A DNA stretch of 64,000 bases from Antedon mediterranea (Eukaryota; Animalia; Echinodermata), in assembly GCF_964355755.1 (NCBI RefSeq), contig NC_092675.1, positions 28,306,912-28,370,911 of the forward strand, written 5' to 3'. Below the pieces are notes generated by a model. That model saw only the letters and a program-made list of their open reading frames with translations. It was not told the origin of the DNA and ran no database searches. Below are positions 21,701-53,000 of this stretch, piece by piece. The stretch's first letter is position 1, and each line of letters opens with the position of its first letter. The position numbers and the translations under genes are program-made.

Positions 21701-24700
21701 TTGGTCTGTGGTAGGCTATAGTAGGCCTATTACCTACACTTATTTTCTGGGGTACGGTAAGCGAAGAGGTGGAAGTCGGTGGGTCTGAGATACTAGGCGA
21801 TGAACAACTAATTTTGTGTTTACGTTAATGTATGTTAATTACCGATAACTTGCTTTTGAAGGTATGTCAAATTCTTCATGTCAATCGGATCTGAAATAGT
21901 CTTTCTTGCACTTTTGCTGTATGATACAGTGAGTGATATTCGAGAGGGAGCACCTTACATAGCCACTCAGATTTTAATTTCGATTTGGATTTTAGGTGAG
22001 TAGAACCAGAGAGTTAAGTTACAACTTCCGGGTAGAACGTTGTACTTATATCGTTATTGTTTGATATCAAATATCACTACCATGTCCTGGCATATCACTA
22101 CCATATTTGGGTACATCACACTATTTTTGTCAAATTAGTTTAATAATGTAGACAAAGCTTAGACCTACATTTCGGGAACTAACAATATCAATACAACTCC
22201 AGATTCATTTTTTTAATATGATCATTTTCTTTTTCTAGGAAAAACCTGGGCTGAAATACAACGAATGATAAACGATTACGAAACTTTCTTTGGTAGCGAT
22301 TTGATGACTAGTATTTACAACTATTTGCTCTTGGTTTTATTGTTTTCGGTTTTTATGCTGAGATTTGTTGTTTACCTACAGGTACGTTTAGTAATATTTA
22401 GTAATTAATTAATAAGTAATATTTATGAGTGAGAGAGAGAGAGAGTTGACTCGTGAGATTGTGCAAGTATGTTATAATGGAAGTTCTGTGATGGCGCTAG
22501 TTACAATCCGTTATGCATGATAACAGAATGACGTCATGTATAGAAAGTTAAAAATGTAGAACGATTGGTAATCGGGGTACTGGACTGGAGGGAGACCAGT
22601 GTATGTTATGCTACTGTAACAATCAGACGTAATGTAAATAAAGTACAAATGAATTTAGCTAACTTATGGTTATTTTGTACTTGAAAAGAACAGAACAGAA
22701 GCTATATTTACCGACATCATAGTTTGACAAATATATTAATTTATTACCATAAATTACTGTACAAAATGTAATGTATACGTAATCATTTTAACTTTTACTC
22801 TTTATTTAGGATCTGGATAGGTCTTCTTCAACGAGTCAAATGCAAAAACGTGCATTGGACGATGCAATGTTGCAAGAATCGCAATTCCTCACCAACTCTA
22901 TCCCAAGTTTGAAAAGTCACATCTTGGTTTCTCTTAACGAAACGGAAGGTGACGTCAACGCTAATCTAGATGAAAGTCTTGATGTATTTCTCGCTGACCT
23001 CTTGGGGAAATTGACCTGCAAAACTCCAGAGCAGACTACACCTGAACAATGTGCAGAATCCGACACTCGGTTGAGTCTCGATTCTTACAATCCAGTTCTA
23101 GTCACTGAAGCTATGTACTCCTTTGCTATAGTTTTAGCCTTTTTACGTCTTTCCTCAATCGCTGTTATTAACGAATTTGTGGGACCGCTTCAAATTTCTC
23201 TTAGTGGTATGGTGAAAGATATTGCTGTATTTGGTGGAATATTTTTCGTTGTATGGCTTGCCTTCTCCATTGGTATGAATCAGTTGCACAACACATTCCA
23301 AGCCATTGAGTACGATCAGTGTATTCGAGCCATGACAGAGGATTGTCATCGTGGACCATTCAGCTCGTAAGTTTGATCCCAGCCGGTTTAAGTACCGATA
23401 GTATAACTAAAGCTTTGTTCCCACTTGCGCACCTACAAACGAATTTGACCAATCACAACGCGATGGCTCATCCGAACTGTCGATAGTGATTGGTCAACTC
23501 AATTGGCTACGTAGCTGCGGTGTGTAAGTGGTAACCAAGCTATTGTTTCTAGATTTTTCTGTTTTTGCTATTATTGCTATTATGTTTTTATGCGTAATAT
23601 TCAAGTACTGTATAGGCTATTCATACACAAAACGAACAACTTCAACATTCGACCAAACAAATCAAGAGAAATTCAATTACACAAAATTACAAACAACATT
23701 ACCAAAAATGTATTAATTCTCTGAGAGACAGAATAATTTCCATGAGCCAGCAAGCAGATAGTTGCAATGTTATATAATTCATTTTTTAAAGGTTTGCATG
23801 GATGTGAAATAAACACTAGTAAAGTTAGGTTTGTGGTAGACCAGTTTGTAGGTTTCCTAAAGGAAAACAAAAACATGATTGTTTCAACTTTTCGGTTGTA
23901 TGGAGAGAAAAAGACGGTAGCCTAACTTTACCACACTGGAATATTTTTTCAGATGTTTTGTCAAATCCTAAAACTAGGGAATATTACTGTAACTGGTATT
24001 ATTATTGTTTGTTATTTATCTATTTATTAAAGTGTACGGGCATCGTTGGAAACTTTTTACTGGGCACTATTCGGAAACATAGGCTTTGGTTCTTCGTTTA
24101 TTGGAAATGGTGATTTTCTCTTCAGTGAATTGGTCTCTATAATCTTCTTTGCAATTTACATTGTTGCTGCTGTCATTATCTTGTTGAATGCTTTAATTGC
24201 TATGATGAGCAGTACATATTGTACCGTTGAGGTAGGTTTTATGAAATAACGCTTTTAAAGCTCTGTCCACACTATCAAACTAGTTTAACAAAAAAGTGTG
24301 ATATGCATGCCCATGGTAGTAATGCTTAAATATGGTAGTGATATGACATCATCATGACTTTCAGTTTGGTATACTTAATGTCCACACATAGTTGGACGAG
24401 TCGTAACCAACCTATTCGGCATTAATATTTTTTTTTCAAAATTGTTAAATCACAACATTAATATATTTATGTACACTGTATATCAAACAGGAAAACGCGG
24501 ATATTGAATGGAAGTTTTCGAGAACTGCTACGTGGATGACATTTATGAATCCATCTGTTTCACTGCCTCCGCCATTCAATCTAATCCCGTGTGCTTGGAA
24601 CATCTGTAAGAAGGAAGACACCGAACACGATACACAGGTTACATTTCATTTTGCAAATCATTTTTATGTGAAAGTGGCTGTTGTTAATACTGAAAGTTAA

Positions 24701-26294
24701 TGATAATAATAACCATCATTATTTAAATACCATTACCGAAGTTTGCCTTGGATCCAACAAAGGCAATCTAAGAACAGGACGCTGGGCTCTGACTGAAGAT
24801 CAAATGATTTATTATGTGGCTGCGACACGATCAGTTACACGCTCCTTAGACTATGCACATACCGTAGTACAGTGCTGTTGGTAGTTTCGCAGCAAGACAT
24901 AAAATGTTACGAGTTTCTATTTGTCCTGTTGTTAGATTGTCTTGATCCAACTATGCTTTAAAAACTGTCATAATAGTTGATAATGTTTAATTTCAGGGTT
25001 TAAAAGACGAAAATTATTTCAAACGAAAATACCAGGTAATGTTGTAGTTTACATTTACGATAATACATACAGGCCTATCGAAACGAGAGCGAAATCGAAA
25101 AATACACCTGATATGAATTGATTTTAATTTTGTTTTGTTTTTATAGAAAGTGGTTGGGAAGTTAGTTGAACGATTTGCACACGAAGTTACGGCTGAAGAA
25201 ACGAGTACTGGGGGCGGTGTTTCTAAAAGGGATATACAAAGCATTAAGAGTGACATCATGGCTTTCAGGTGAGTTTTATTTACGAAGGCCCTCGTAAAAG
25301 AAAAAACATTCCGTTTTTACGAAGGCCCTCCTAAAGAAATTCCGTTTCGTTTTATTTGTCTCTCTACACAATACAACCGCACAATATAAATATGCATGAT
25401 AGTAAAAACATTTGAAAGGATATCCTTAAAGCTCTGTCCACACTATCAAACTTTAAGTGACAAAAATTGTGATGTGCCCATATATGGAAATGATGATATC
25501 ATATCACTACCAATATTTAAGCATATCACTACCATATTTGTAAAACTAGTTTGAGAGTGTAGACAGAGCTTTGGAGGACTTGCCTAGGTACACATATGAA
25601 AAGAATGAATAAATGGTATTTGTATATTTATAAATAACAGTAAGATAGATGTATATACCAGTATTTAAGTTATACATAAAATGATCTATAGCTCTTACAT
25701 TTTAAATGTAGGTTTGTAACAGGATGTTTAAATAATCAATGGTGACACAAAAACCTTTTACTAGAATATTGTACATGGTAACTGGTTGTTATTTTTTTCC
25801 TATTATGTTAAGGCAGAAACTATAGAGGCCGTGTATATATCATGAATATTTATGATACCGGCCTACTCATGACGTTTTCTTAATTCTTGTACTGTTACCT
25901 TACTTACTAAAATAACCAGTCTTGTACGGTACATTATCATTACAGATACGAATGCAATAATATGCTGAATTTTCTGAATAAAGAAATGGAAGGAACGACG
26001 AGGCAGACACTGTTGACTAGAGATAAACTTGAAATCACTAAAGACATCAAGTCTAAGGCGGAGGATATTAGAAACAGAGTGGCTGAACACAAACAAGGAT
26101 TCACAGAACTGCATGCAGATCTAACAGAAATTCATAAAGAGATTCAACAGAGTGAACGAACAAAACCACCGCCAAAGCAGCAGCCGTTGAAACGCACAAC
26201 TAGTAGCAGGGTGTCGATGATGTCATCATTCTTTGACACCGCTGATGAGACTGGGGGAAATTTAACTGAAGAAGCAAAAGATTTATTTAAATAG
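18789..26294 (+). CDS. Divergent TRPC-family (canonical/short TRP) cation channel, 14 coding exons, ~888 aa
   Basis: Exons 18789-18948, 19338-19462, 19720-19824, 20193-20492, 20796-20894, 21486-21673, 21862-21995, 22239-22381, 22810-23366, 24033-24231, 24491-24637, 24997-25035, 25147-25268, 25946-26294 (2667 nt, in frame). TRPC motifs: ankyrin IGDALLYAV and TPIIQAALKNNF, YQALAS, LLDQTR, FVAHPNCQ, GPLQISLSGM, pore FYWALFG, LLNALIAMMS, TRP box ADIEWKFSR, LPPPFNLIP, coiled coil IKSDIMAFRYE. Confidence 0.93.
20493..20705 (+). repeat. ~31-bp minisatellite (about 7 copies) starting at the exon-4 splice donor of the TRP gene
   Basis: Unit GTGAGTAGGCCTACAACTTGACATTGATAAA repeated with few substitutions. 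Confidence 0.9.
23410..23541. mobile_element. MITE family B copy in a TRP intron
   Basis: AGCTTTGTTCCCACTTG...TTTGACCAATCACAACG...GATTGGTCAA...AGTGGTAACCAAGCT. Confidence 0.75.
25430..25570. mobile_element. MITE family A full-length copy (reverse orientation) in a TRP intron
   Basis: TAA|AGCTCTGTCCACACTATCAAACT...AGTTTGAGAGTGTAGACAGAGCT|TTG. Confidence 0.85.
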
Positions 26295-31419: not shown

Positions 31420-34400
31420 ATGTACCGACTTATTTTTCACATCGGACTCCTTTGTTGGATGGTAAGACAAAGTCATTCGCAGGCATGTGGTGTCAATGCT
31501 CGACAGGGGATCATAAATGGCGACATAAGTATTGGATTTATTTTCCCATTTTCTGGGCCTAGTGAAGACGGAGTTGGTTGCAACACAACGGTACAGTCTC
31601 CAGATAATATTCAACTAATAGAAGCGGCAATACACATTGTGAATTCTATCAACAGCGACCAGATTCTTCCTGGAATAAGCATTGGTATGTAATATTTATT
31701 TTGCTTTAAAACTTTACACTTCCCTGGTTTTTAGTCAGATGTTTCTAAGAAGTTGGTTCTGTACGGAAAGATCCCTTAATTCTTCTTGCATAAAATTCTG
31801 TGAATTCTAGTATAGAAAAGAATATATATATTTTTTTCAGATCTGATAGACGGTTATACTGACGTACTGATTTTTTTTTATAGTAACGATACCGAAACGT
31901 AATGAATGATTGATTACTACAGTATAGATAGATCTGACGAGTAACGTAATGAATGATTGATTACTACAGTATAGATAGATCTGACGGGTAACGTAATGAA
32001 TGATTGATTACTACAGTATAGATAGATCTGACGAGTAACGTAATGAATGATTGATTACTACAGTATAGATAGATCTGACGAGTAACGTAATGAATGATTG
32101 ATTACTACAGTATAGATAGATCTGACGAGTATTAGGCCTAAATATTTACTTCTTATATTCTTCTATCCTTTGCTCTTAAAGGTTTAGAAGCATGGGACAC
32201 CTGCCATCTTTCAAGTGTGGCAGTAGACAGAAGCATTGCTTATTTAAATGAACAGGTGTCGTACACCAACGATGATGGAACAGCATGTTCTTCAACCAGC
32301 CTTTTGGCAGGTAAGTACTGACAAATGTTGATCATCATTGGCAGCATACACTGTACAAGATCCTTCCCCAAGGTATTTCTTCTACATGCAAAACACCCAG
32401 AACTACCCAGCATAGTCATCGGACACGTTGAAGATAGCCAAAGAAGAGAAGAAGTAGATCAACTGTACTTGTATAGAGAAAGCATTTGGAAACTAGTTTG
32501 TCTCTATGATGCACCATCGTTCGCTAATCTCGCATGGCTAACGAAATGAAGCAATTTTATTACGTCAAAGTTGGCGAAAACTTCTGACCAATAGAAATGA
32601 TAAGCAAACATACTAAAGTTACAAGATAACACGATAATGATACCTTTTTATTCTCGTGTTAGGTATGATTGGGTTGTCGGATAATGGACCAGCAACTGCT
32701 GTGACGTCACTCTTAAACGAGGCAATGGTCCCATTTGTCAGTTATGGGGCGTCTTCATCAAATTTGCAGATGTATGATTACTTTCTAAGGACGGTTCCAT
32801 CAGATTTTATGGATGTGGAGGTAAAACTTTCGACTTCAATTGTCAAGTAAACGATCACGATATGGCATAATTCATTGTATATTTGAACTTAACTTAACAT
32901 TCTTGTAATATAACATGTACAATATGAAATTCTGATGAAAATTAATCATATTTTTGTATTTTAAATTCCTAATTTAATAATTAATATAATTGAAACGAAA
33001 ACTCGTGAGGTGGTTTCCCGAATGATCGTAAAATCAAAACGGTACTGGGTATGACCAACTAACGTTCTTGTCACCAACTAGCCATCCATTCATATAGACG
33101 TACTGATGTTGCAGTCTATCCTACCCAGTTTTGATTTTAAAAATCATTCGGGAAACCACCTCACGACGATCACAATATGTATGTATGTATGTGTCATTCC
33201 ATTTACCGTACTTGTTTACTCGCTTTCAGGTAATAGTCAAAGTACTCGTGGAATTGAGGTGGACCTATGTTTACACCTTCACCTCAGCTGATGAATCGAA
33301 TATGGCAGCAAATGAATACTTCCAAATGTTGGCAAAGAACAACGGAATCTGTGTCAGTGACTCGAAAACTGTTTACACGAACTCGAACGACAGTGACTAC
33401 AATTCAATCATTTCTAGCTTTACAGATGGTGGTCCCAATATCGTAGTATTGTTTTCTTCTACAGCCGATTCTATTAGGCTTTTTCAGACAACTCAGAGTA
33501 TGTCAAAGGGTTTGCAATGGGTCATCGGGCGCGAGATTTTGAAAGATAGTATTGGTTTACAGAAAGACACCATTAACGTAACAAGAGGAATGCTTGGTGT
33601 TGCCCCGAGCGTGCTGAGTTCCAAAGTTGAAGCCTTTCAATCCGTCTTCACTGGTGACAACTCACTCAACAGCCAGGCTGATCCATGGTTCGTGGACTAT
33701 AAACTCTTACAAAAGACGAATGTCACACAAAACATGTTTGTAGCACCGTTACAGAATGCCTTCATGTTGTATGCAAACGCACTCCACAATGCGCAGGCAG
33801 ACCAATGCAGTGGAAACGGAGTTTGCGATACTTTAAGAAACATTTCTCCTAATGATCTTATGGGTTATCTAACCAAAGCAGAGTTTGTCGGGGTTGATGG
33901 ATCAAACGTGTCTTTTAGTAGTAATCGTCAGTTGATGAACCAATCCTACGACGTCTTCAATATTGGGTTTGCTAGTGAAACCCAAAATAAACGTTTTTCG
34001 GTAGGTAAAACAATTCATTCACAACACGGAGACACACATAGTTAAATGAACAATTTTAGAGAAACTCTCAACTAAATATTCATATTATGATTAGCCCGTG
34101 TCTAGGAATTGTGCTTTCATTAAAATCATTCCTGTGGGCCTAGTTATATAGGTATTCACTTATGGTACACTATAAACATCATTGCATATTTTTTTGGTGA
34201 TCTGTGTATAGACACTGACCGATATATTATATTTATTTTTAAATCTTTAGGTTGGAAATCTTACAAATAACAATCTTACATTAGAGAAAGATTCGATTCA
34301 TGTTTGGTGGCAAGGTAAGAAAGAGAGAGTATCCGATGTAAACGCCACGTGTGGTAGTCCGTGTCGAGATCTTGCATGTGGAGAGGCAGAGGATTTAACA

Positions 34401-37400
34401 AAGGTAAGCCATTCTTATTCGTTCAGAAGTAATTTCAATTTAACTTCATACACTTATTCCAATAACTAATATGCATAGTGCCTACACTACAGTGCACAAT
34501 CGAGTGATTGCGAACATTTTATTCGTTCAGAAGTAATTGTAATTTAACTTCTAAATCAAATAACTATTATGCGTAGTGCCTACACTACAATACACAATCG
34601 AGTGATTGCGAACTGAACAGACGATTTATCCATTAGGCGCGAAAATGTTGTAGACCTACTGACGTCAATCTGTTCTTACTTGCAGGTTTATATACCAGGC
34701 AACATTATTCTGGGAGGAATGTTCGGAGTACACGATAATGCGCCGTACCCTTCTTCAGCAGGTTGTGGCAATATAAACAACGAAGGAATCCAACAGTTAG
34801 AAGCTCTATTTTACGGTCTTGATTTATTAAACAGCGACAGTTCAGTACTTCCGAATATTACTGTCGGAATTGATGCTTTTGACACTTGTAACTCTCCTAG
34901 CCGAGCTGGGAACATAGCAATTAAACTTGTCAGTGATGCCGAATTTGGTGGTACCGGTTCTGGACAACGGACAGATGCATCGGGCAATATAGAACATGTT
35001 TATGGGATAATAGGTCCTGGATCTGATGATGAGTGTTCCGAAGTTTTGAAAGTGTCCGGCATTTACGATGTTCCTGATATTTCGTACTCTGCCCAATCAG
35101 CGAGTCTTAGTAATACGTATAATTATCCAGAGTTTGCGCGTACTGTATCCGTGGAAACCATGCCGATTGCCGCCATAATTGAAATTCTGGTAGCAAAAAA
35201 TTGGAATTTTGTGCAGGCAGTTATCACTCCGAGTTCGTACGGCTGGAACTCATACAGTGTTTTATCTCAGCAAGCACCGCCTGTAAGTTCAAATTTCATT
35301 TCTAAAGTTCGTAGTAAAGTTGGGCCTAAGAACCCAAGTTCAGTGGTAAATATCGTTCTACAACCTTGTCTCTTTCTTTGTCTAATGATTTCTTCGCGCC
35401 TTTGATAATGTTTGATTTAATTTAACACATTAAGCTCTATATGCTCAAATATGGTAGTGAAATGCTCAAATATGGTAGTGAAATGCTCAAATATGGTAGT
35501 GAAATGCTCAAATATGGTAGTGAAATGCTCAAATATGGTAGTGAAATGCTCAAATATGGTAGTGAAATGCTCAAATATGGTAGTGAAATGCTCAAATATG
35601 GTAATGATATGACATCATCATGTCTATATATGGGCACCTCAAATTTTGATAGTGTAAGACAGAGCTTTATAAACTTCTGCACATTTGTTATGTTACAGAA
35701 AGGAATTTGTGTGACACAGAGAGTGATGCCTAGCAATGCAGTGTCTATGGATTCTCTTATTGAAGATATGACCCAAGGTGATGCCGCTAATGTAACGATT
35801 CTGTTGACTGAAGAAGGTGACACATACCGGTTCTTAACAGAGATTACAGCCAGAAATTTAAATGGAAAATTCTACATAATTGCAGCAACCAAATGGCCAG
35901 TAAATACTGTTACTAATGACATACAAAATGGACTTAAAGGTACATAACAAAAATGGAACTTTTATCAGTTGGCATAAACGTTTCTAATTGTTACAATTCT
36001 TTATGTTATTATATTCGTTTATTTGTAGTTTATATCTTATCGGATTTATTCTATTTTTCAAAGGTTTAACTGTTGTTAACATGAGAGATCGTGACGTCAC
36101 AGGGTTTAAGCAATATTTCAGCAATCTGAAGCCTTCTACAAACCTTCGCAATCCTTGGTTTAGAGAGTATTGGCAGAATGTATTCAACTGTAGTTTTGAG
36201 GACAACAAACAGATGTGTAATGGTTAGTTATTTTAATTTAACGTACATTATCCCAACATCAACATATACGCCATTGTGTTCATCGTTATCATCATCCAAG
36301 GCATAACAATATTTTGTATACAGTATTTTTAATTTTGCAATATTTTTGTTTTGTCTGTATAGTATTGTTTTATATGTATTTAAATATCTTTCATCTCAAG
36401 TGGCCAAGGAGGACAATTATTATATTACATTTATGCTGATTACAGTTCATTTCCAAAAATAAGACTACTTTTACTTCAATGTTTCAAATAGATTCCATGT
36501 CTTTGAAACCCGCTAATGTCACCAATCCGTACGTTGGTGAAGTGGTTGATAGCTTGTATGCAATGGCGTATGGACTTCACACTCTACAGGGTAACAAGTG
36601 TCCTCTGCAAACGTCTGTATGCTACGACATGACCCAATCCACTGGAAATGAACTATTCCTAAATATGAGAAGTGCTAATTTTGAAAGTAGAAATGAAGAT
36701 AAGAAAATGGTGTATTTTAACTATCAAGGAGATGGCAGTTCTGATTATGACATATTTAACTACCAACAAGTTGGTGGAAACCCATTTGAATATGTTAAGA
36801 TTGGCTCTTATACAATGAGCAAATTAGATATAAATGCAACGTTAGTGAAATATTACGACCAGTCTGGTAGAGAAGCCCCTAACGATGGTAATGCTTGCGT
36901 GGGTACTTGCGACAACTGTGAGGCAGTACAGAAAGAAAAGGTGGCGGAGGTACGAAATGGTGATGTTTGGATCGGAGGTAGGCATGTAATTTTTATATAC
37001 ACTAAGATGAAATAGGCCATAACCCGTTACATCAACCAATTGATAGCAGTTAGGCCTACTAAATTTAATTCGGGTATCCTATATTATGCGATAATTGAAT
37101 TATGATACGAAAGCAGAAACAATTTTTTAAAAGTGTGTGTTAACTGTTTTATTGTTCTATAATGTTGATGATGATTTAATCTCTATATCTTTTGGAATGT
37201 CAATATTATAATCTATTTATTCTTTATACAAAAATGCATAATTCTTTGTTTAGGCCTAATTGAAACATTATGGAGTATACTTCGTGTTGCAGCTATAATT
37301 ATTATTCTAAAGCTCTGTCTAAACACTATAAAACTAGTTTGACAAAGAAAGTGTGATGTGCCCAAATATGGTAGTGATATGACATCATCATGTAAATATA

Positions 37401-40400
37401 TGGGCACATAATTTGTCACATAAAGTTTGATTTTGAGCTTTAAAAAATCATTGTGTTCTGATTTTTAGGATTTTTTGAGCTAAATCAACCTGGCAACGAC
37501 CGTATCAATTGTTTAGACGAACTTCTGCCTTACAATATACAGCATCTAGAAGCGTTTATGTGGGCGATTGATGAAGTCAACAAGAATATATCTATATTAC
37601 CAGATATTAACATAGGAGCCATAGCGTTTGATACATGTGGCCTTCCTGAAAAAGCTCGACGCGACGTGACAAACTTCGTCTCAAAGGCGGTTGAATATCG
37701 CTCAGGCTACCCCAAGGATAGCATACGAGTGACTGGAATTATTGGCGGAGAAACTAGTGATTCGTCCATCGAAATCGCAGACGTTATAACACCGTTAAAC
37801 ATTTCCCAGATAAGCTATGCTGCAACCAGTGAAGTTTTGAATGACGTAAACAAGTACCCGTATTTTATGCGCACCGTTTCTACAGATTCAGACCAGGCAC
37901 GCGCTTTGGTTGATATCATAACAAGCTTCGGTTGGACATACGTTTCTGTATTGTATTCTGATGACGAGTATGGTATAGATATGCTTCGTGAATTCAGTAA
38001 AATTGCTCAAAACTCCGACATATGCATCGCAATGAATCTGAAAATTCAGATAAATTCGACAATAAATGACTTTGACCAAAACGTGAAGACGCTGCTAACA
38101 AACAGGCAGTCAACGATTGCTGTTCTTTTGACGTCTGATATTGATACAAAGCAGATCCTTGATGCTGCACAACGTCAGGACGTCTCCAGCATTCAGTGGT
38201 TAGGAACCGAAACATGGGGATCAAGAGGTTATATTACACAGGCTGCTAGAAATACTTCTCAGCGTGCTATAACAATACAATTTCAAGAGACAGTCGCTAA
38301 AGGATTTAAAGAATACTATACTAATTTGAATCCTTATTATAATACTCGTAATCCATGGTTTAGTCAGTTTTGGATGGACAACTTCCAATGCAATCTAAAT
38401 TTGTGGAATGTAGAGAAAAAGTATGATAGTCAATGTCATTGGGATCTAAAACTTGAAGACGATTACGTGGAAGAAGCAGAAGTTACATACATTGCAAACG
38501 CTGTAAAGGCTTTTGCAATTGGACTTAATAAAACTATGCAAATAGTATGTCCTGACGTCACAAAGTAAGCAATTATTTTAAGTTGTTTTAAACAGTAATT
38601 TCAATGAATGAATGTAACATCATAACTTAACAATCTGTACTATTTTTTTAGCTATGTATGTCAGGCTGTTTACAACAATTCGAATTTGCTTAAAGAAAAC
38701 ATACGGTCTGCACAATTCATTGGATTCGGAGGAAAAGAATTCAGTTTCGACGCAGAAGGAAATGGGCCACCCAAGTATGATATTCTGAACTTTGTTGGCG
38801 ATGCCTATAATATGGTAAGATAAAAACCCGATTCTCTGTATCTCCACATATGACCATATTTGTCTAGTAGAATATCATAGGAAAATTCCGAAATACATCT
38901 CTTGTGTATCACATGTGGTGACGGTATCATGTAATGATAGGTTAGTGGTTAGGTTATGGTCTATGTTAGGCGATACATGTGAAACACATGTGATCCTATA
39001 TCATCGCATTTTCCTAATATACTAGACAAATTTAGATACAGTACCAAGTATCGGCTCTTTGATGAGAACGATGATTATAATGACAAACGAATATTAACCT
39101 ACATAGCAAAGTTGTAATCATTCTTTAAATAGTGTTTATAAATCTGACAACAAAATGCTACAATAGCATTCGAAATCAATAAAACAAAAAAAAATCGGAT
39201 ACCCTTAATTAAAGAGGACACTCTCCACTGTATATGTAAGTTTTAAAATGTATTTGTATTCAAAAATTTGTGATAGATTGGTTCATGGGTTAACGGTACG
39301 TTAACCTGGAATGGAACAGACTGGAAAACAGCAGTTGACAACGTAAAATCTGAATGTGTTGGACGATGCACGGAGTGTACAAGAGATGATGAAATTAAGG
39401 TAGCAAATGTATCGGGAGAGTTGCAGATTCCAGCTTTCTTCTCCATTCATGAGCATGCTAATTACAGTGATTGTGGAGCACTTCGTTATTCTGGTATAAT
39501 AAATCTAGAAGCATTTTTGTATGCGTTGGATGAAATTAACCACAGTGAAACTTTGCTTCCCGGTGTCAAACTCGGTACGAACGCGTTCGATACTTGTATG
39601 ACTAGTTCGCGAGCAGTGCGAGAAGCGTCATCTTTACTTGCAGGACTGCTAGACGTTGGAAGTAATGGTTGGTCATCTGTTGTGGGAATGGTGGGGTCTG
39701 AGACAGATGACATAACTAAAGGCTTAGCAGCAGTATCAAAAGAACATCAATATACACAAGTAAGTTTTTAGGAGAGATTTTTGAAAGAGATTAAAAGAGA
39801 TTTGTTTCTTCATTTTATGTGGAACTTATTGCGGCGTTGGTCTTGTTTAACGCAACACGAAGAAACTGGCTGCTGTTAAACTATTTTATCGTCCTTAAAG
39901 AAGAACTTATTTATACTAAATTAGTGTTATTACATTAGAAACTTTTTATTTTACTAGGTAAGCTATGGAGCATTCTCGAATTCCTTCAACGATTTAGATG
40001 AATACCCGTACCTTCTGCGAGCGTTACCGCCATCTTCTGTTTCAATACAAGTCATAGTGGACATCCTCAAGCTCAATAAATGGAATGGTGTCTTTGTGAT
40101 ATACTCAAATACAATGGAAAACAAAACAAGTAAGTAGCATTATGCAAACAAATAAAGAAGTTCTAGAATTAGGTTGATACGGTGGAAAATTCAATTTCCT
40201 TTTTATTTCATTTATAAAATAAGAAGATTCATTAATAAATAGGCTAGGTCTGCTGGGTACTTTTTTATTTAAAGTGTTTAAAAGTTTGAATTGAGTGAAT
40301 CAATGCAACGTTTGTCTGCCACATACAGTACATACAAATTGTTTATTGAATAATACCCAATTTTTCTTTGTAAAATAGATGTAAACGTATTTACTGAAAC

Positions 40401-43275
40401 TGCCGTAAAAGAGGAAATCTGTATTCAGCAACAGTTGATAGTTCCACGTAATGCAGAAGACAGCGAATATACTGAAATAATAAGTGAGATTGCCGGCGAC
40501 CCAGACTCACCAATAGTAGTGTTACTCTTTACAACGTTAACAGATACAAACAAACTACAGCTTGAAGCGACTAAATCAAAGCGTCACATGACATGGATTG
40601 AAGCAGGAGGTATCGGTAAGAAACCTCTAAAGAAAACTGATGTCAGTAGTGCCGTGTCTGGTAGTTTCTACGTGGCACCGACAGCACCTGGGTCAATCAA
40701 GCGTTTTACGGATTATTTCAATATTTTAGGAAAAAACAACAATCGTAATCCATGGTTCGAAGAGTACTTGGAACAAATTAATGGAGGGTGCGATCCTACT
40801 TCTGGAGTAGCATGTACATCGCCTGCTCAGCTCTCCCTGAACGATGCCGATCAATTAATGGTAGGGGCTATATTTGACAGTGTGTTCGCTATTGCGTACG
40901 GGATAGACTCATTGCTGAAGTCAACATGCAGTGGTGGTGATGGTTCTGGAATATGTGCAGAATTCCTCAATCTAACTCCTGACGACCTTTTCAAAGTAAT
41001 TCAAAAGGTAAATGGTAAAGGTATTACTGGTGGAGATTTGGCATTTACTACTGATGGGTATATGATGAGAGATTTTGATGTATATAACTATCAAGAAAAA
41101 GACGATGATTATTCGTTTGTCAATGTAAGTTTCATTAATTCAATTGTTTGTTGTAATAATATTTCTCTAGTAATCATAGGTAATGGGAAATAAAGAAGGG
41201 TCTAGGAAATATGTCCTTTCAAGCTCCCTCAACCTTACCCAACTTAGAGACATCTTAATTGATATCAACAAACATCTTTTTAACTACTACTTACGTCTAA
41301 ACTGTTCATTTATACTTTAAGTTGACAATATTTTAAACAAAGTAATCTACTAACGAAATGATCTTACGCTTTGTAGGTTGGAACATGGTCTAATAAGAAC
41401 AACTTGATCCTTGATTCTGTTGAGTTTTATGGTGATGACGGAAAGACAACCGAATCACTAACTTCAACGTGTAAAGAACGAGTTGTTACTACTGTAACAT
41501 ATCCACCAAAGATGACGACAGATGAATCCGAAAAGAGCCATAATAGTCAGAAACTCACGTCTGAAAAATCTGTAACGGGTAATTTATATTACGTCATCGT
41601 GTGTCTTTGTCTTGTGGGTATAGCGTTAACATTGGCAACAATGCTATATTTTTTCCTTAAGCGAAAGACCTCATTGGTGTCGAAATATTCCTACAGTCTA
41701 TGTACACTACATCTGATTTCAATCCTTTTCTTGTACATTCTGCCTCTTCTCTTTGGAATTGAAGCTTCTGATTCGGTATGTGCTGTACAACATTTTATTA
41801 TTGGACTGGCTTTCGCTGCACGCACAGCAAGTGCATTGTTGATGTCTATTCGGTTGTACCGCACCGGGAAGCACGAGAGAAGGATTTCTGGCGAGAAAAC
41901 AACCCACACAAACGATAGTAGTCAAACAATATTGTTCTGCTGCCTGATGTTAGTTGAGGTGATGTTGATTGTGGAGTGGGTCGTTATTGAACCTCTGGAG
42001 AAACTCTACGTTACCGGCTCAGACGAGACCTTAAAATGTTTTTACGACATGGATGCTCTGGCGATTTCTTTTATTTACATCTTCGTGATGTTGCTGGTGA
42101 CACTTGGTGTAACAATCTGGGCTAGGATGAAAGTGGATTTGGCATACCATCCCCAGATATTTGGTGTCATGATTTCGACTATCGGTAAGAACTTATTTCT
42201 TAAGTGTTCGGTACCAATAAACTGGTATTTGTATGTATATTGAATTAGATATTTGTCACAAAGACAGCCCATTTCACTTGTGGACACTGAGAAGACTCTG
42301 TTAGCAGACTGAAAGCTAGTACAAATTACATTTTATTTTAACTCACTCAATTTACGAAAAACTATTTTGTTGTTGCTATATTTAAGTGAAGTTACCAATT
42401 CATATATATTCATATCTATTGTTTTCCTTTATTTAAATTAAAACCCCACTTTCTTTTCCAGGAACAATGGTGACGTTCATCATATGGATTCTTGCAGCAA
42501 ATATGACCGACAAAGAAGAAGACATTCCAACTTTCATTAGCTTTGGTGCTATTGTCACAGCGACAATTACTCTTATAGTTATCTTCCCGCCAAAAATTGC
42601 TCATATTTACAAACGATATGATCCAAGGTTTGACGATACTGCCAGCATCCTTTCAAGAAGTTCCTCCGTTACTTCAAATGCAAATCGATACGTGGAACCT
42701 CGTAAGTGTTTTAAGTAAATGTACAGTTATCTTAAGCCCTGTCTACACTATCAAACTTTATAATGTGCACATATATGGACACGATGACATCATATGACTG
42801 CCATATTCGGACACGTACACTTCAAGCTAGTTTGATAGTATAGACAAAGCTTTACAGTAAATTACATACATTTATATTACGGGAGATAATATAACTATTG
42901 ATCGAAACAAGCTGTGCGACTGACTTTTCTCTCGGAGAACATGCGGTAATATTATGTTGCCTCTTCTTATAAATGTTGCTGATTTGCACAACTCAATATA
43001 ACACTATCAAAACAAATACACTCTGCTCTATTTCTAAATATGGACCGTTCTTTCTGTACCTGTGTTATAATGTTATTCTACTAACTTCTCAACCCACTGT
43101 GAACAATATAATGTTCGGCTACTGTACTTTACTTGCTAATTGTAATTAAATTGTTAAATATATGTCTGTTTTTCTTTTTGTAGGCAGCACTAGCGCATCA
43201 AACGTAGTTGTTGAAAACCCAGCTGCTCTTGGTGTTTTGGCTGAAGAAGAAAAGGAGGAAAACACTGGCGTATAA
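31420..43275 (+). CDS. Class C (glutamate-family) GPCR with four tandem Venus-flytrap domains plus 7TM, 17 exons, ~2252 aa
   Basis: Exons 31420-31684, 32182-32310, 32663-32820, 33230-34000, 34251-34403, 34686-35282, 35699-35939, 36064-36222, 36492-36977, 37469-38564, 38652-38814, 39277-39759, 39958-40129, 40379-41124, 41377-42184, 42462-42701, 43184-43275; all GT-AG, 6759 nt, one frame. Signal peptide MYRLIFHIGLLCWMVRQSHS. Four copies of the VFT motifs G(D/N/E)xxIGxxF, LPxIxIGxxAxDTC, xSYxAxS, YxxFxRTV, (RN)PWF. 7TM has the TM3 Cys (SVCAVQ), ECL2 Cys (LKC) and TM7 IFPPKI. Confidence 0.92.
31896..32131. repeat. Minisatellite, 5 x 47 bp, in the first coding intron of the GPCR
   Basis: AACGTAATGAATGATTGATTACTACAGTATAGATAGATCTGACGAGT at 31896, 31943, 31990, 32037 and 32084. 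Confidence 0.95.
33003..33166. mobile_element. Inverted-repeat (MITE-like) element in GPCR intron 3
   Basis: TCGTGAGGTGGTTTCCCGAATGAT..AAAATCAAAAC pairs with GTTTTGATTTT..ATCATTCGGGAAACCACCTCACGA (24-bp perfect outer arm). Confidence 0.75.
34415..34613. repeat. Two-copy ~100-bp tandem duplication in GPCR intron 5
   Basis: TTATTCGTTCAGAAGTAATT...ATGC.TAGTGCCTACACTACA..CACAATCGAGTGATTGCGAAC occurs twice. Confidence 0.85.
35433..35667. mobile_element. MITE family A copy with an internal 21-bp minisatellite (about 8 copies)
   Basis: (ATGCTCAAATATGGTAGTGAA)n at 35441-35603, followed by the family-A tail ATATGACATCATCATG...GATAGTGTAAGACAGAGCT. Confidence 0.9.
37310..37440. mobile_element. MITE family A copy in GPCR intron 9
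   Basis: TAA|AGCTCTGTCTAAACACTATAAAACTAGTTTGACAAAG...GTCACATAAAGTTTGAT..GAGCT|TTA. Confidence 0.85.
38827..39055. mobile_element. Inverted-repeat element, family D copy in GPCR intron 11
   Basis: CCGATTCTCTGTATCTCCACATA...GATACATGTGAAACACATGTGAT...AGATACAGTACCAAGTATCGG; shares blocks with 48898-49088 and 17830-17978. Confidence 0.7.
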
Positions 43276-47092: not shown

Positions 47093-50000
47093 TCATTTTG
47101 GACCGTATTCTGCATAGAATGTATTCACTCTTTGAAGAAGATGTCGGTTACGTTCATCCGCTGATCTTCTGGCAGATTCCTGTAAACAAAATGATTTTCA
47201 AAATAATTTAATAATAATAATTTAATAATTTTCTCAGCCGAAACGTATACAAACATATTTATTAATACAGTATTCAGTTTTAATACAATTTGTCTTGTCA
47301 TGTTTTCAGCCAAATACATAATATATCTTCTGGACTTGTCTACGATATATCAAACTAGTTTGACAAAAAAAGTGTGATGTGTCCAAATATGGTAGTGATT
47401 TGATGTCATTGTGACCATATATGAGCAAATCACATGTGAGCTTATGGTCAGTATTTTATTGACCTTCAAGCAATAATAAATAAGTTAGTATGAAATTATT
47501 AAATTTATAAATAATATATCCTACCTCATTCAAATATTTTATCTCCAATGCATCATATTTCATTTGCATTTTTGTCGTTTTCTGCTCATATTCTTCTTTT
47601 TGTCTCTTTAATTCCATCTTCAACATCTCTACCTGTTGTTGAAGATGTTCATACGTCAGGGTGTGATCAATCACTGGTGCTACATCCGGAATATTCGCAT
47701 TTATCTCCTGAGGCGGTTTCGGTGGCCGTTCCGGCACTGGGTGAACGTAATTTGGCGGGATACCATTTGAATGAGGTGTAATAGCATCGTTGTATGAAGA
47801 GAACCTTGGTATGTATGCTTCATCATCGATAAGAATTGAGTTGTTACGATTTGGTTTAGCATACTGACCATTAGATTTTGATGATGCAGATATTACCATT
47901 TGATCTACACTTGTAATAACCTCTTGGGTAACTGAAAACATTTCATCAACGCTAGGATTTCTCGTTTTGAATTTCTCCCGTTTCACTACAGGTCCATCGT
48001 CAATATCTATTAATTTACCTTCAGCGACAGTGTTGTAGCTATCCTCGTTGGCTTTTACCTCTTTTATGAGGTCTAAATGCACGTTTGTGGGCGGGTTCTT
48101 TTTTCGTGGAGGCGCTACGGGAATGTTTGTTTGACGGTATGGTTGAATTGGTACCAATTTCTGTAAAGCTGGAGCAGTGTTTACATTAAAATCTATCATA
48201 TCATTCGGTGGGAACATCTCTTTATGTTTTTCTATAATTAAATGCACAAACTGTTGACTAAGTGATGTAGACTGCATCAACGATGCTGGACTATCTGTGT
48301 TTGGCCGAATAATATTTGGTCCGAAAACTGTAGCGATGTTTTGGACAGTCATTTTATTTTTATCTTCATGTAATGATACGTTATGTAGAAAAATACACAT
48401 GTACCGCAAAAGGTTGTAGTTAGTACGTGGCAAAAGAGCCAGTTGCTTTATAAGTTCTTTTTTGCCCTTTTCGGAATTCTGCAGGAAAAGTTTAATACCG
48501 TTCATGATGTCATCATAATGTGCCCACGGTATAACTGGTTCCGGTAACTCACGTAGATACAGTTTTAATAGAGATGCGACTGTATGTATATCAACATGTT
48601 GTTTGTCAAAATCTGGCTTATCTCCACAATCAAATGAATCCTGCAGTGTTTTGATCATGCTTGACCGACCTGGCAACCTATTAACAAAAGCAACAACAAT
48701 AATTAAAATAAATATAAATATGTAACAAAAATTTAGAATTTCATCTTTGATTAAATTAACTTTTTCACACAGGATAAAATATAGCCTCCCCTTGGGGCTT
48801 CTGCTACTCATCCTATTTTTGAGACAGCGATTTTGTTTAAATTAACGAAATCTTGTGAAATGTCCTTTTAAGAACATTTCTCAAGATTTAAAAATCACCC
48901 GATTCCCAGGGCTGTATCTCCACATACTATATATTTTCTAAGTAACAAAGGAACAGTTGATGTGGTAGCTGCCAGTATCATATAAGGTCAGAGGTTAAAG
49001 ATTACTACTAGATACATGTGAAACACATGTGATGTATTAGCAAATATTCCTGTGATACTGAAGAAATAGATACAGTATCGAGAATCGTCTGTTTAACTAC
49101 AGTATAAGGAAATTGAAAACATTTTTGACTCACTGCTATGTTTTTCACAATACTACAGTCTCTCAATACAGTCTCTTAATATACTATAGTATGTAAAAGA
49201 ATAGTAAAAGCTACCTGAATATGCCTTCTTCAAGGAGTCCATTTTCTACTATGTAATTAACACACTGCTCTACTATTGATGGTATCATCTTGGTAGACGT
49301 TGTACTTTCATTGGTTATAATGTCCAGTAGACTTTGGCCAAACACACCTTATTAAAACAATTAAAAATCAAATCATTTTAAACTTTGAATAGATAGGCAC
49401 GGCAAGAAAATTTCTCAAACGAAAATGAAAATGTTTTAGGGTAGAATTATACATGTCTTAACATGCATAAAATTGCAATATATTTGTATTTAATTTTTAA
49501 TGATATTCGGAAATTAAATGAGGGTGGCTTATCCAGTAAAGGAACTGATCATTAAGGGCCCTTGATAAAACATATAGGACTAGTACTAGTACATCACAGT
49601 CACTGATCATCAACTGGGCCCTCTGGGAGACCAGTCTTTGACTGAAGAGGTCGCCCAGTATAAATATAAATAAATAAAGGATATTCATAACAAAAGCATT
49701 AAATCTCTACATTAAAAATTATAATAATTTTAAATTGTTGACGGATACAAAATATAGAAAAAATTTTACTTATCTAGAAATAAATCATTTAAGTTGGATT
49801 GTGAAGGAGTTAAATGGCAACAGAAAGTTTTATGTTAACAATATGGATTTTGGTAAAATACATCTAAGCTAACTAAACAATTGTTTTCTTTCTTTTATTT
49901 AATTTGTCACACTTTAAATACAAATGTTTGTATTAGTAAGCAGGTATCAGAGAAATAATAAATGTAGTAATCAAATTAATTATAAATAGAGATAAAAAAA

Positions 50001-53000
50001 AATCTCTAAGAATATCCTCTTCTTTGAAAAGATATAATTGAAAACCATTACAACAGTAGACTTTCTATTTGCCAGGGAAGTCGGCAGTAAAATTATACTA
50101 GATTCAGTACGGCATTAAATAAACAAGACATGTGATTTTCATTATTGATTGAAATTTACATTCATGTGACAGAAACCAAAAGTTGTTATACAATATCTAG
50201 GGCAAAGGTGAGTGACCTTTGGCATACTTGTATGATTGACTGTCATGATAAGATTTCATAATTAATAAATAATTAATTTAGTGATGATAATTGATATCAA
50301 TATGGCAGTTATTAAACATGTAAATCCATAACATACTAGAATCATAACATAGTTGCTTAATATTCAGTTAATCTGGGAAGTGTTGAATTTTAAGTGTAAC
50401 TTTATATAAAAACGATTATCATAATATACTTCCAATTTTTGGCTTTCGTAACTGGAAGTAGCAGGAAACTTTTGATATTAATGTTTAAAGAAACACCTTT
50501 TCACCATAGAAACCATGATACGAACAAAGCACATGTATGACAGTGCCAATACAATTGATGATCATTTCTTAAATTATTGACCAGTAAAGTAAGTAAGTAC
50601 TATTGATCTCTCACTCCGACCATATCTTTATTGTATTTGAATTCACCCCTGATTTGTTCAATGGTAGAAAGGCGCATTCACTCGATCAACAATGTAATTC
50701 TAAATAATATATTCTCTGATTTTAAATTTAAACTAAAAATCTGTGAATGTCACTATGATAAAGAATTGCACCTTTAATGATGTTTGATTAATTTCTGAGA
50801 TTTTCAATTTTATTTTATTGTCTACAAGTTTCATATACTCATTTTAAAGTTTTGTTTGAATTTTTTGTAAATCAAAAGATAATTTGAATTAATTGTTGTA
50901 GTTATTGTATACATATAGTAATATCAGACTTTTATTGTATATTACGTCCCTGTCGATTAAACAAAAATATTATATTATTATGTATCAAGTAATAGTTTAA
51001 CTTGTATGTTACATCTATAAATAAGTAACTTGCCTTTGAAACTAAAATGTAACAGTTTGTAATTTAATATCCTACTTTAATAAGCTTTCTGCTAAGATTA
51101 ATAAATAAGTGCAAATATACAGTAATCCACAGTGTAACATATCTATCAGGCAAGTGGTTAATTCGCTGAAGACATTATTTTACCTAGCTTTAAATTATAA
51201 TAAAGCAAGCTCTGTCCACACTATCAAACTATTTTGACAAAAAAATTGTGTTGTGTCCAAATATGGTGGTGATATGACATCATGTCCATATATGGGCACA
51301 TAACGTTTGATAAGTGTAGACAGAGTTTAAGAAATCAGTAAACAAGTTTTCATTACTTTACTAAGAGCTGATAAACTCATTTTTACTTCAAAATAATAAT
51401 AAAATAATACTTTGCACTTGAAAGATTGTGTTATACTAATAAGGAAAACATTACTGTGATCAAATTTATTAAATAATGTAATGGAATTTTCAATAATTTA
51501 AATTCTTGTTCTTGTTTAGTTAGCCGTTCTCGATTTAGAACATCAGGCCGTCATTGACAGAAGTTTGTTAATTAATTAATTAATTAATTAATTAATATTT
51601 TAAAAAGAGAGTCTTCAAAACAGAAAATGTAAATAAAATCGTACATTGAAACAACAAATAAGGTAAATTATACAGACTACTTTTTTTAGGAATCAAATTT
51701 GAAGTTAAAACACTTATATACACCTTCGTAAGATCCCTAAATAAACATAAAAATCATAAACAAAAGCATATATAAGTTGACATATGCATTGACTTTTTGT
51801 GAGAGAGACCAGTAACTTATGTGTATCTTTAATAATTTATTTTACTCTTTTTATTATTTTTAGGTAATATCATTAGTTAAATCACTCTGGATTTCTTTAG
51901 AAATGTGTCGCTGTTTATGAAGCAAAGCTTCAAAATAAATTATTATTAAATTAAACTTTCAACAGGTGAACATTTTGTAAGCTTTTAGTTAGTTTTATGT
52001 GGGAGAACAAGAAACTGTTATAAAACAGCTATCCGGTATTCTTCTTTATAGTTTTGTTGCTATTTTTAGAGTTTTATAGTGTAAAATGGTGTATTTCCCT
52101 TTTCAATCAACACAGACTGTTATCTATCTTCTACCTGTCATTATTGTTTAAGAATAGACAGGTATATCAATGAAAAGTATTTACACTTCAAATCAAATTA
52201 ATTTCAAATTTATTAATTTTGATACTTATAGTTATTAGAATGCATGCAGTATACAGTTTAAGAATTGTTTTTATTTAATTTAAATTCTTATTTTTTTTAC
52301 CTGTCATCATTGTTTAAAAATAGACAGGTATTACAATGAATCTTATTTTACATTTCAAATCAAATTAATTTCAAATTAATTTATTTTGATACTGAGTCAA
52401 TAAGAATTGTTGTCATTTAAATTCTTATTTTTTAGACTTCTTATGGTTTAAATGATTTCCTTCATTTACATTTTGTCTTTTCTTGCAATGCTTATTTATT
52501 TTTCAGTAATTTTGATTTTAATATAAATATATTTCTTTTTCCTGGTGGAACTAGCCTTGGTTTGTTCAAATTCTGGGAAATTTTAATAAATTGAATAATT
52601 TGTTTGCAAAACTATGTACTAAATTTTCAAATGAAAGTCAAATTTAATTTAATTTCAAGTGAACAACTGCTTTCCCATATGGTAAGTGATTTAATGCTCC
52701 TGTTTGCTACTGAATGGCTTTTCAAAACACAAATTATTAGTAATTGGCACACAATAATAGGCCTATGTAAAACAATTACCTCGGCCAACTTTTGCATACA
52801 TAACTCTCTGTATCTCCTGGATCCATTTGTCCATATCAATCTGTGTAGACGCCAATAGTAAGAAAGTGTCATGATTACCCGCTAACCTTCCGGTGTGTCC
52901 CTCACCTACGAAGGAAAAAACAGCATTATTTCATAAAAAATCATGAACTAAATTTATTTCAGAAAAGATAAAAAATGACTTTATACTCGACATGAAAATA

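What the first reader, a model, noticed from the sequence alone, without database searches (positions are those of the whole stretch)
34340..41580. Nine-cysteine domain replaced by mini CxxxCxx(x)C linkers and a Ser/Thr stalk
Seen: the three inter-VFT linkers are ATCGSPCRDLACG (exon 5), ACVGTCDNCE (exon 9) and ECVGRCTECT (exon 12). After VFT4 only one Cys remains (LTSTCKER), followed by a ~35-aa S/T/E/K-rich stalk to TM1. Known: mGluR and CaSR relay VFT closure to the 7TM through a rigid 9-Cys domain beginning S-x-C-S-x-x-C; GABA-B uses a short stalk instead. Inference: each linker is the N-terminal stub of that domain re-used as a disulfide hinge. The apparently flexible last stalk implies a non-canonical VFT-to-7TM coupling.
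Basis: partly seen in the sequence, partly recalled or inferred. Interest (0 to 1): 0.7.

Follow-up and report, generated by a model that had tools for sequence, protein, structure and literature searches.

The report
Four-flytrap receptor with three-cysteine caps
This gene encodes a cell-surface receptor with four ligand-trap domains in a row, in which the rigid nine-cysteine rod of glutamate and calcium receptors is cut down to a three-cysteine cap likely stapled to its own trap, above a stalk predicted to be floppy, so it likely signals by pulling two copies together rather than through a rigid lever.

Summary
Observation confirmed. A spliced 17-exon gene encodes a 2,252-aa class C GPCR: four Venus flytraps (VFT), a 7TM, no nine-cysteine domain (CRD). 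It is identical to an uncharacterised crinoid database protein and belongs to a bilaterian clade of receptors with 2-5 VFTs; this scan already noted a five-VFT octopus member on other DNA. The first linker Cys is CRD Cys1, but the motif is a cap on its own VFT, not mainly a hinge: it also follows the last VFT in 26 of 34 relatives, and its three-Cys form occurs in 165 of 173 VFTs that keep the lobe-2 anchor Cys and 0 of 16 that lost it (five losses). The lone Cys after VFT4 is a derived reduction. The stalk is predicted disordered, 26-95 aa in orthologues, unlike GABA-B's rigid stalk. Only VFT3 keeps an amino-acid pocket (8 of 8), and the 7TM lost K3.50 (7 of 8). Likely mechanism: amino-acid sensing with dimer-proximity coupling (inferred, untested). 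Ten paper searches found no description.

The parts
31420..43275 (+). 17-exon gene, 2,252-aa class C GPCR: signal peptide, 4 VFT, stalk, 7TM, 62-aa tail. Exons 31420-31684, 32182-32310, 32663-32820, 33230-34000, 34251-34403, 34686-35282, 35699-35939, 36064-36222, 36492-36977, 37469-38564, 38652-38814, 39277-39759, 39958-40129, 40379-41124, 41377-42184, 42462-42701, 43184-43275
   Evidence: splice sites, ORF; spliced contig; identical to P0264; 4 ANF_receptor + 7tm_3, no NCD3G
31519..34259 (+). VFT1 (aa 34-444): pocket degenerate; keeps lobe-2 Cys225 (33350-33352) and the helix-B-loop Cys124 (32286-32288), the site of the intersubunit disulfide in mGluR/CaSR
34338..34382 (+). Three-Cys cap 1 (Cys475, 479, 484)
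34698..36814 (+). VFT2 (aa 497-932): pocket degenerate; lobe-2 Cys695 (35708-35710); helix C keeps the most mGluR-like hydrophobic dimer residues of the four
36887..36922 (+). Three-Cys cap 2 (Cys960, 964, 967)
36959..39288 (+). VFT3 (aa 981-1410): the only intact alpha-amino-acid pocket (S1083, T1106, D1126, Y1154, E1234); glutamate-selecting Arg and Lys replaced (H1012, E1324); lobe-2 Cys1172 (38023-38025); most conserved domain (44.9% mean identity)
39346..39381 (+). Three-Cys cap 3 (Cys1433, 1437, 1440)
39415..41391 (+). VFT4 (aa 1453-1878): pocket degenerate; lobe-2 Cys1639 (40420-40422) kept
41458..41481 (+). Reduced cap with the single Cys1905 at the CRD Cys1 site; likely re-paired with Cys1639 (inferred)
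41473..41580 (+). Ser/Thr-rich stalk (aa 1906-1941), predicted disordered over aa 1915-1938
41581..42604 (+). Class C 7TM (aa 1942-2190): TM3-ECL2 Cys pair and R3.53 kept; K3.50 to Met, E6.35 to His, W6.50 to Met; basic ICL2 motif conserved

Best explanation
This is a four-flytrap class C GPCR whose nine-cysteine domain is cut down to a three-cysteine cap that likely staples onto its own flytrap, and which likely senses an L-amino acid in VFT3 and would signal by dimer compaction across a predicted floppy stalk rather than through a rigid lever. Shown: the architecture, the loss of the CRD, the conservation of the caps, the covariation of cap Cys number with the lobe-2 Cys, the single intact pocket in VFT3, the variable stalk and the altered 7TM switches. 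Inferred, well supported (about 0.8): cap Cys a pairs with b, and c pairs with the lobe-2 Cys, which keeps the VFT-proximal knot of the CRD (the CaSR C236-C561 bond) and drops the distal rod; after VFT4 only a is left and likely pairs with Cys1639. Inferred, moderately supported (about 0.7): VFT3 binds a non-glutamate amino acid while VFT1, 2 and 4 are structural. Inferred, speculative (about 0.45): two chains are held together distally through VFT1/VFT2, VFT3 closure re-packs the stacked ectodomains and draws the membrane-proximal parts together, and the two 7TMs, whose K3.50-E6.35 lock is gone, re-associate.
For: Cap: exactly three linker Cys in 165 of 173 VFT units with the lobe-2 Cys and 0 of 16 without it; five separate losses on the VFT tree, Cys a kept wherever any Cys is left, c the lost one in 3 of the 5. 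In the AlphaFold model of the hemichordate orthologue P0096, the end of the aligned range puts Cys c within one residue of mGlu Cys3 in 18 of 23 mGlu2-5 rows that reach the cap (mGlu numbering recalled). Cys1905 sits at the Cys1 site. The canonical anchor bond is C236-C561 (PMC4977154, passages). Ligand: S/T/D/Y/acid pocket intact in VFT3 in 8 of 8 orthologues and 0 of 8 in each of VFT1, 2, 4, matching CaSR S147, S170, Y218, E297. Stalk: pLDDT below 50 over aa 1915-1938; last Cys to TM1 26-95 aa in the 8 orthologues against 11-16 aa in 94 canonical receptors. Proximity: the same cap plus a 17-37 aa stalk sits on 18 of 18 two-VFT single-pass relatives examined, which have no 7TM to lever; VFT1 keeps the helix-B-loop Cys in 8 of 8 and VFT2-4 in 0 of 8. 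7TM still constrained: TM3 and ECL2 Cys 8 of 8, R3.53 8 of 8, basic ICL2 motif in 6 of 8.
Against: No disulfide, ligand, dimer or G-protein signal was measured. In 2 of the 5 loss events the lost Cys could be b or c. The five single-Cys caps keep a together with the lobe-2 Cys, which also fits an a-VFT, b-c pairing. Six of 189 units break even Cys parity. Helix B/C dimer residues are partly degenerate in all four VFTs, and VFT1's loop Cys could pair in cis with the equally conserved Cys23. A dead VFT4 lies between the live pocket and the membrane. W6.50 is lost in 8 of 8 and the TM7 motif is degenerate, which fits a non-signalling 7TM as well. pTM 0.69 for VFT4 plus 7TM is higher than I would expect for two free domains. 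Many protostome members have no intact pocket by my five-residue rule, so amino-acid sensing is not family-wide.
Confidence: 0.47

Rival explanations
1. The ectodomain is uncoupled from the 7TM: the protein is an amino-acid-binding scaffold, decoy or adhesion-type tower, and the 7TM is either constitutively active or only an anchor.
For: Floppy, length-variable stalk; K3.50 lost in 7 of 8 and W6.50 in 8 of 8 orthologues; long 7TM branches; pocket-less VFT4 next to the membrane.
Against: VFT3 pocket intact in 8 of 8; R3.53, the TM3-ECL2 Cys pair, ICL2 and a C-tail Ser motif are conserved from crinoids to hemichordates.
Confidence: 0.22
2. It is the ligand-binding subunit of an obligate heterodimer, like GABA-B1 or a T1R, and a partner such as the three-VFT echinoderm paralogue carries the G-protein output in trans.
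For: A paralogue clade (P0123, P0166, P0217; the last from the same species as P0264) lies next to the four-VFT clade and mostly keeps K3.50 and E6.35. Heterodimers are established for GABA-B and taste receptors (PMC4977154, passages).
Against: No partner or co-expression data; VFT numbers differ, so the tiers would not match; the paralogues have an intact pocket of their own in 2 of 3.
Confidence: 0.15
3. VFT4 docks directly on the 7TM, with a short strand after Cys1905 pairing with the ECL2 hairpin as in GABA-B, and the Ser/Thr stalk simply loops out, so coupling is rigid after all.
For: The model shows a short strand at aa 1911-1913, an ECL2 hairpin and pTM 0.69. Protostome members keep a conserved pre-TM1 segment. 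GABA-B forms such a sheet (PMC8163086, passages).
Against: The strand has pLDDT about 65, its partner is unknown, and it is not conserved among the 8 orthologues; ECL2 and stalk vary freely in length.
Confidence: 0.11
4. One reading: each linker is a disulfide hinge that joins one VFT to the next.
For: All three inter-VFT linkers carry the motif; Cys a is CRD Cys1.
Against: The motif also caps terminal VFTs with no next domain (26 of 34 and 19 of 19); its Cys count follows the preceding VFT's lobe-2 Cys; confidence drops after, not within, the Cys cluster (pLDDT 74 then 57).
Confidence: 0.04
5. The four-VFT chain is a gene-prediction fusion of neighbouring mGluR-like genes.
For: Such fusions exist among the hits: three Polypterus 'CASR, partial' models with scattered VFT and CRD pieces.
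Against: One spliced contig spans the gene; same architecture in 8 of 8 echinoderm and hemichordate orthologues, each VFT position forming its own clade.
Confidence: 0.01

Closest known systems
Metabotropic glutamate receptors (mGlu1-8) and CaSR/GPRC6A/T1R (VFT + CRD + 7TM)
   Same: VFT fold (VIA-align Z 43.7, rmsd 1.9 A over 424 residues to mGlu3 3sm9); best PDB sequence hits for VFT3 and the 7TM exon are mGluRs; lobe-2 anchor Cys, CRD Cys1 and the alpha-amino-acid pocket of VFT3 are kept.
   Different: Four VFTs instead of one; no NCD3G; three-Cys cap and variable stalk instead of the nine-Cys rod; glutamate-selecting residues gone; K3.50, E6.35 and W6.50 replaced; 7TMs form a separate clade (35 rows, SH-aLRT 100, quick tree).
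GABA-B receptor
   Same: Class C receptor with a VFT and no nine-Cys domain.
   Different: GABA-B's stalk is a relatively rigid three-stranded sheet with ECL2 and it keeps the K3.50-D6.35 lock (PMC8163086); here the stalk is predicted disordered and the domains are mGluR-like. GABA-B was not in my trees.
Venus kinase receptors and other single-pass VFT receptors
   Same: A VFT signals across a membrane without a CRD lever (VKR seen in search listings and abstracts); two-VFT single-pass relatives carry the same cap.
   Different: This protein has a 7TM and no kinase; the single-pass relatives scanned have no Pfam domain in their tails.
BvgS-type sensor kinases with tandem periplasmic VFTs
   Same: Several VFTs in tandem on one chain (PMC4352136, abstract in listing).
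   Different: Bacterial histidine kinase; no Cys caps, no 7TM; an analogy only, not tested.

Membership tests
Class C GPCR | 7tm_3 membrane domain with the TM3-ECL2 disulfide | tested here: met
   PF00003 E 3.7e-29; seven helices predicted; both Cys kept
Class C GPCR | N-terminal VFT of the ANF_receptor family | tested here: met
   four stretches, E 8.6e-195; fold match to mGlu VFT
Class C GPCR | Obligate dimer | tested here: inconclusive
   VFT1 keeps the loop Cys in 8 of 8; helix B/C patch only partly kept; sequence signs only
Class C GPCR | G-protein coupling | not testable with these tools
   needs a signalling assay; K3.50 lost, R3.53 and ICL2 kept
mGluR / CaSR / GPRC6A / T1R / V2R branch | Nine-cysteine domain (NCD3G) between VFT and TM1 | tested here: not met
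   no PF07562 at E<=1; own CRD profile best domain 2.3 bits; no hidden exon
mGluR / CaSR / GPRC6A / T1R / V2R branch | One VFT per chain | tested here: not met
   four
mGluR / CaSR / GPRC6A / T1R / V2R branch | Lobe-2 Cys that bonds the cysteine-rich domain (CaSR C236) | tested here: met
   Cys225, 695, 1172, 1639 align to it; the bond itself is inferred from covariation
mGluR proper | Glutamate-selecting Arg78 and Lys409 with the alpha-amino-acid pocket in one VFT | tested here: not met
   VFT3 has His1012 and Glu1324; mGlu1 numbering recalled
mGluR proper | 7TM groups with mGluRs | tested here: not met
   separate clade of 35 rows against 25 canonical rows; midpoint root, quick tree, no GABA-B outgroup
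GABA-B | Rigid linker-ECL2 beta-sheet stalk | tested here: inconclusive
   24 stalk residues below pLDDT 50, one short strand of unknown partner
GABA-B | K3.50-D/E6.35 ionic lock | tested here: not met
   Met and His in this protein

The most novel reading that the evidence does not exclude
An undescribed, bilaterian-wide subfamily of class C GPCRs stacks two to five flytraps, each closed by a new three-cysteine mini-domain, and its echinoderm-hemichordate branch transmits amino-acid binding in a flytrap two tiers above the membrane to a lock-free 7TM with no rigid link at all: a class C receptor that works like a single-pass proximity receptor.
Probability: 0.4. Interest if true: 0.8.

Novelty: new variant of a known kind. 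Interest (0 to 1): 0.62.

Why it matters
Textbook class C activation needs a rigid relay, either the nine-Cys domain or GABA-B's beta-sheet stalk. This family keeps only the VFT-proximal knot of that domain, and the echinoderm-hemichordate branch adds a stalk that varies from 26 to 95 residues while strictly conserving one ligand pocket. It is a natural experiment on whether rigid cis coupling is required or dimer proximity is enough. It also defines an unannotated mini-domain shared by multi-VFT GPCRs and single-pass VFT receptors, a large orphan family in echinoderms, hemichordates, amphioxus, molluscs, nemerteans, flatworms and arthropods that databases label 'uncharacterized' or 'mGluR-like', and names one testable ligand site (VFT3).

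Tried and rejected
No whole genome was held. The first gene model was one base off and gave nonsense (fixed). Word-index searches limited to 2,000 aa missed full-length orthologues (84 hits, one cap-bearing; none of 2,857 candidates). The ESM Atlas gave only generic 7tm_3 clusters. My first idea, that linkers 2 and 3 are the central C3-C4-W-x-C5-x-x-C6 motif of the CRD, came from 2.3- and 1.2-bit matches and was inconclusive on single sequences (best p 0.02-0.08 over several registers); the family profile rejected it. Complex prediction of VFT4 with the 7TM gave no verdict (score 0.00, alignment not used). No listed run is on record as RNA. Variation of the stalk in the second organism was not obtained. 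PMC1820657 was not held, so mGlu disulfide numbering is recalled. The careful 7TM tree did not finish; the quick tree is reported. Polypterus multi-VFT hits were set aside as fused models. P0187 and P0165 are multi-VFT proteins without the three-Cys motif and were left out of the unit counts. GABA-B was not among the 26 PDB hits of the 7TM exon nor the rows shown; that does not exclude it. Earlier-finding look-ups by place and by sequence found nothing.
Full report
GENE. The + strand from 31420 to 43275 gives a 17-exon gene with 16 of 16 GT-AG introns and one reading frame of 2,252 aa. Pfam finds four ANF_receptor stretches and one 7tm_3, and no NCD3G at E<=1. A 7,065-nt contig of run X5 lacks the introns: seven exons are listed as pieces, and the gaps between them in contig coordinates equal the other exons of my model to the base; exon 15 follows exon 14 directly. 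The tool only guesses that X5 is RNA, but an intron-free contig is what a transcript gives. A second organism (X9) has a spliced contig from exon 9 onward. Database protein P0264 (Antedon mediterranea, 'uncharacterized protein') is identical to the model.

FAMILY. A full HMMER search with the VFT3 exon listed its best 150 of 5,719 hits, led by multi-VFT proteins. Names were looked up for 30 of them and 17 came. Four-VFT orthologues occur in crinoids, an ophiuroid, an asteroid, two echinoids, a holothurian and a hemichordate; five-VFT forms in molluscs and a nemertean; four-VFT forms in chelicerates, a crayfish and an insect; two- and three-VFT forms in amphioxus and echinoderms; a partial one in a flatworm. 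On a 7TM tree of 60 rows, 35 multi-VFT rows form one clade (SH-aLRT 100) apart from 25 rows of mGluR, CaSR, GPRC6A and V2R-like proteins; this is the quick tree, midpoint-rooted, without GABA-B. The unrelated three-VFT protein P0187, which has no linker Cys, falls outside that clade on a long branch. Three Polypterus hits are fused gene models with CRD pieces. This scan had noted a five-VFT octopus receptor on other DNA (e1-8666125); I treat that as a lead and found the breadth independently.

WHAT THE LINKER IS. I cut the family into VFT-plus-linker units: 56 proteins picked by hand, incomplete units filtered by HMM coverage (number not printed; 163 kept), 30 units added from 7 proteins, 4 truncated tails dropped and 1 boundary reset by hand, leaving 189. 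In 137 three-Cys motifs the a-b spacing is 3-5 in 124 and the b-c spacing 2 in 110; Ser precedes a at -2 in 68%. The columns round a match CRD Cys1 (6.3 bits; Cys3 -5.6; Cys4 -7.3); those round b fit Cys2 best but weakly (2.55, next anchors 2.1-2.3); c falls where CRDs have Gly in 86%. The first Cys lies 26-33 residues after the last VFT strand, against a median of 29 for Cys1 and 47 for Cys3.

It is a cap rather than a hinge. The three-Cys form follows 120 of 136 internal VFTs, 26 of 34 VFTs next to a 7TM and 19 of 19 other terminal VFTs. In CaSR the lobe-2 Cys236 bonds Cys561 of the CRD and fixes their orientation (PMC4977154 and PMC11252437, passages); that Cys561 is the third CRD Cys is recalled. 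All four VFTs here keep that lobe-2 Cys. Across the family, 165 of 173 units with it have exactly three linker Cys (5 have one, 2 have two, 1 has four); of 16 without it none has three (11 have two, 3 one, 2 none). The rows are related, so I counted events: five losses on the VFT tree (Diadema VFT4 against its Lytechinus sister, two Lingula paralogues, P0217 against P0166, P0123 VFT1, arthropod VFT3). Cys a stays wherever any Cys is left; c is the lost one in three events and b or c in two. In the AlphaFold model of the hemichordate fragment P0096 (pLDDT 85.9, pTM 0.64), structural alignment to mGlu2-5 ends at the cap in 23 of 50 rows shown, and extrapolating from the last aligned pair puts c within one residue of Cys3 in 18, and b on Cys3 in 2 (numbering recalled; local pLDDT about 54; rows not independent). 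Both lines point to a-b and c-lobe 2 bonds. Against: the five single-Cys caps keep a with the lobe-2 Cys, which would fit a-lobe 2 pairing directly, and 6 of 189 units have odd parity. For linker 3 the Cys block scores 74 and the next ten residues 57, so any hinge lies after the cap.

THE LAST LINKER. One Cys is seen in both crinoids, the asteroid, the holothurian and one scorpion; three in Amphiura, Lytechinus and both hemichordates; two in Diadema, which lost the lobe-2 Cys. The single Cys is therefore a repeated late reduction. In the model of this protein's VFT4-stalk-7TM (pLDDT 85.0, pTM 0.69) Cys1905 is at the edge of the ordered part (88, then 65), aa 1915-1938 are below 50, and Cys1905 sits at the mGlu Cys1 position. 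Among the 8 distinct orthologues the stalk has 13% mean identity, 26-95 aa from last Cys to TM1 and 38-56% Ser/Thr/Pro, against 11-16 aa in 94 canonical receptors. Protostome members have stalks of 22-55 aa, mostly less Ser/Thr-rich, with a conserved pre-TM1 segment, so the mucin-like stalk is a feature of this branch.

LIGAND AND 7TM. By a five-residue rule (Ser165, Thr188, Asp208, Tyr236, acid 318 in recalled mGlu1 numbering; CaSR S147, S170, Y218, E297) VFT3 is intact in 8 of 8 orthologues and VFT1, 2 and 4 in 0 of 8 each; the nemertean protein has all five intact, and 59 of 189 units overall. VFT3 is also the best conserved domain (44.9% against 29.8-36.0%) and lacks the glutamate-selecting Arg and Lys. 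In the 7TM, K3.50 is lost in 7 of 8 orthologues (kept in 26 of 34 family rows and 94 of 97 canonical rows), W6.50 in 8 of 8, and E6.35 is His here; TM3 and ECL2 Cys and R3.53 are kept in 8 of 8, and a basic ICL2 motif in 6 of 8. K3.50-E/D6.35 is the conserved class C lock. VFT1 alone keeps the helix-B-loop Cys (8 of 8; 63 of 63 canonical receptors), the intersubunit disulfide site in CaSR (PMC5979557, passages), though a conserved Cys23 could take it in cis. Helix B/C dimer residues are only partly kept, best in VFT2.

MECHANISM. I commit to a distally tethered dimer in which an amino acid closes VFT3, the stacked ectodomains re-pack, and the 7TMs respond to proximity across a floppy stalk. 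The cap chemistry is well supported, the ligand site moderately, the coupling step is inference. That 18 of 18 two-VFT single-pass relatives examined use the same cap and a 17-37 aa stalk shows the module is used where no 7TM lever exists. Rivals are an uncoupled ectodomain, a heterodimer with the three-VFT paralogue, and direct VFT4-ECL2 docking.

LITERATURE. Ten full-text searches (seven aimed at the family, three at known mechanism) found no description of multi-VFT class C receptors or of the cap. I read term passages in PMC12716839 (lists ANF+NCD3G, ANF-only and Cache+EGF as the metazoan architectures), PMC9138782, PMC6267866, PMC6307864, PMC6408891, PMC2246102 and PMC7042368; none of the passages shown mentions it. 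The Saccoglossus orthologue appears once, as a consistently misclassified 'mG' entry in PMC5568607 (table passage and Discussion). No supplements were read, and those of the repertoire papers may list these proteins; most subscription journals are not in the library.

VERDICT. Real, well conserved and apparently undescribed: a new architectural variant of class C GPCRs with a new mini-domain. Not an mGluR, CaSR or GABA-B by membership tests. Interest 0.62.

Noticed in passing
P0066, P0126, P0141, P0153 and 14 other hits: A family of two-VFT single-pass proteins (named ones are from a brachiopod and bivalves) with the same three-Cys caps, mostly intact amino-acid pockets and Tyr-containing tails of 21-514 aa without a Pfam domain in those scanned; a possible undescribed receptor class.
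   Followed up: partly
window 34686-35282 and 37469-38564 (helix-B loops of VFT2 and VFT3): These surface loops are strongly conserved in all 8 orthologues, which suggests fixed contacts between tiers of the VFT stack.
   Followed up: no
window 42462-42701 (C-tail, aa 2199-2210): An aromatic-acidic-Ser motif right after TM7 is kept from crinoids to hemichordates; a candidate phosphorylation or adaptor site.
   Followed up: no
P0217: A three-VFT paralogue from the same species as P0264, labelled mGluR3-like in the database.
   Followed up: partly
P0187 and P0165: Multi-VFT proteins without the three-Cys motif (P0187 is an unnamed ENA record with three VFTs and a 7TM), likely a separate origin of tandem VFTs.
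   Followed up: no
P0086, P0088, P0089: Polypterus 'CASR, partial' models of 2,500-3,900 aa that look like fusions of a tandem receptor array.
   Followed up: partly
window 39277-39759: The spliced contig of the second organism (X9) is 12 bases shorter in exon 12 and 3 shorter in exon 14; the places were not resolved.
   Followed up: no
window 35441-35611, 37320-37431, 42730-42830: Copies of a very high-depth dispersed repeat in introns 6, 9 and 16, with a 21-bp tandem array of 8.1 copies in intron 6; other tandem arrays at 31896-32131 (47 bp) and 34410-34613 (98 bp).
   Followed up: no
window 20193-26291 (+): Exons of a TRPC-like channel gene (TRP_2, Ion_trans).
   Followed up: no
window 47459-54422 (-): Exons of a PH + RhoGAP gene.
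   Followed up: no
window 13547-15430 (-): A 628-aa open frame with no Pfam match at E<=0.01.
   Followed up: no
window 4697-4987 (-): An exon of a D-2-hydroxyacid dehydrogenase-like gene, weak match.
   Followed up: no
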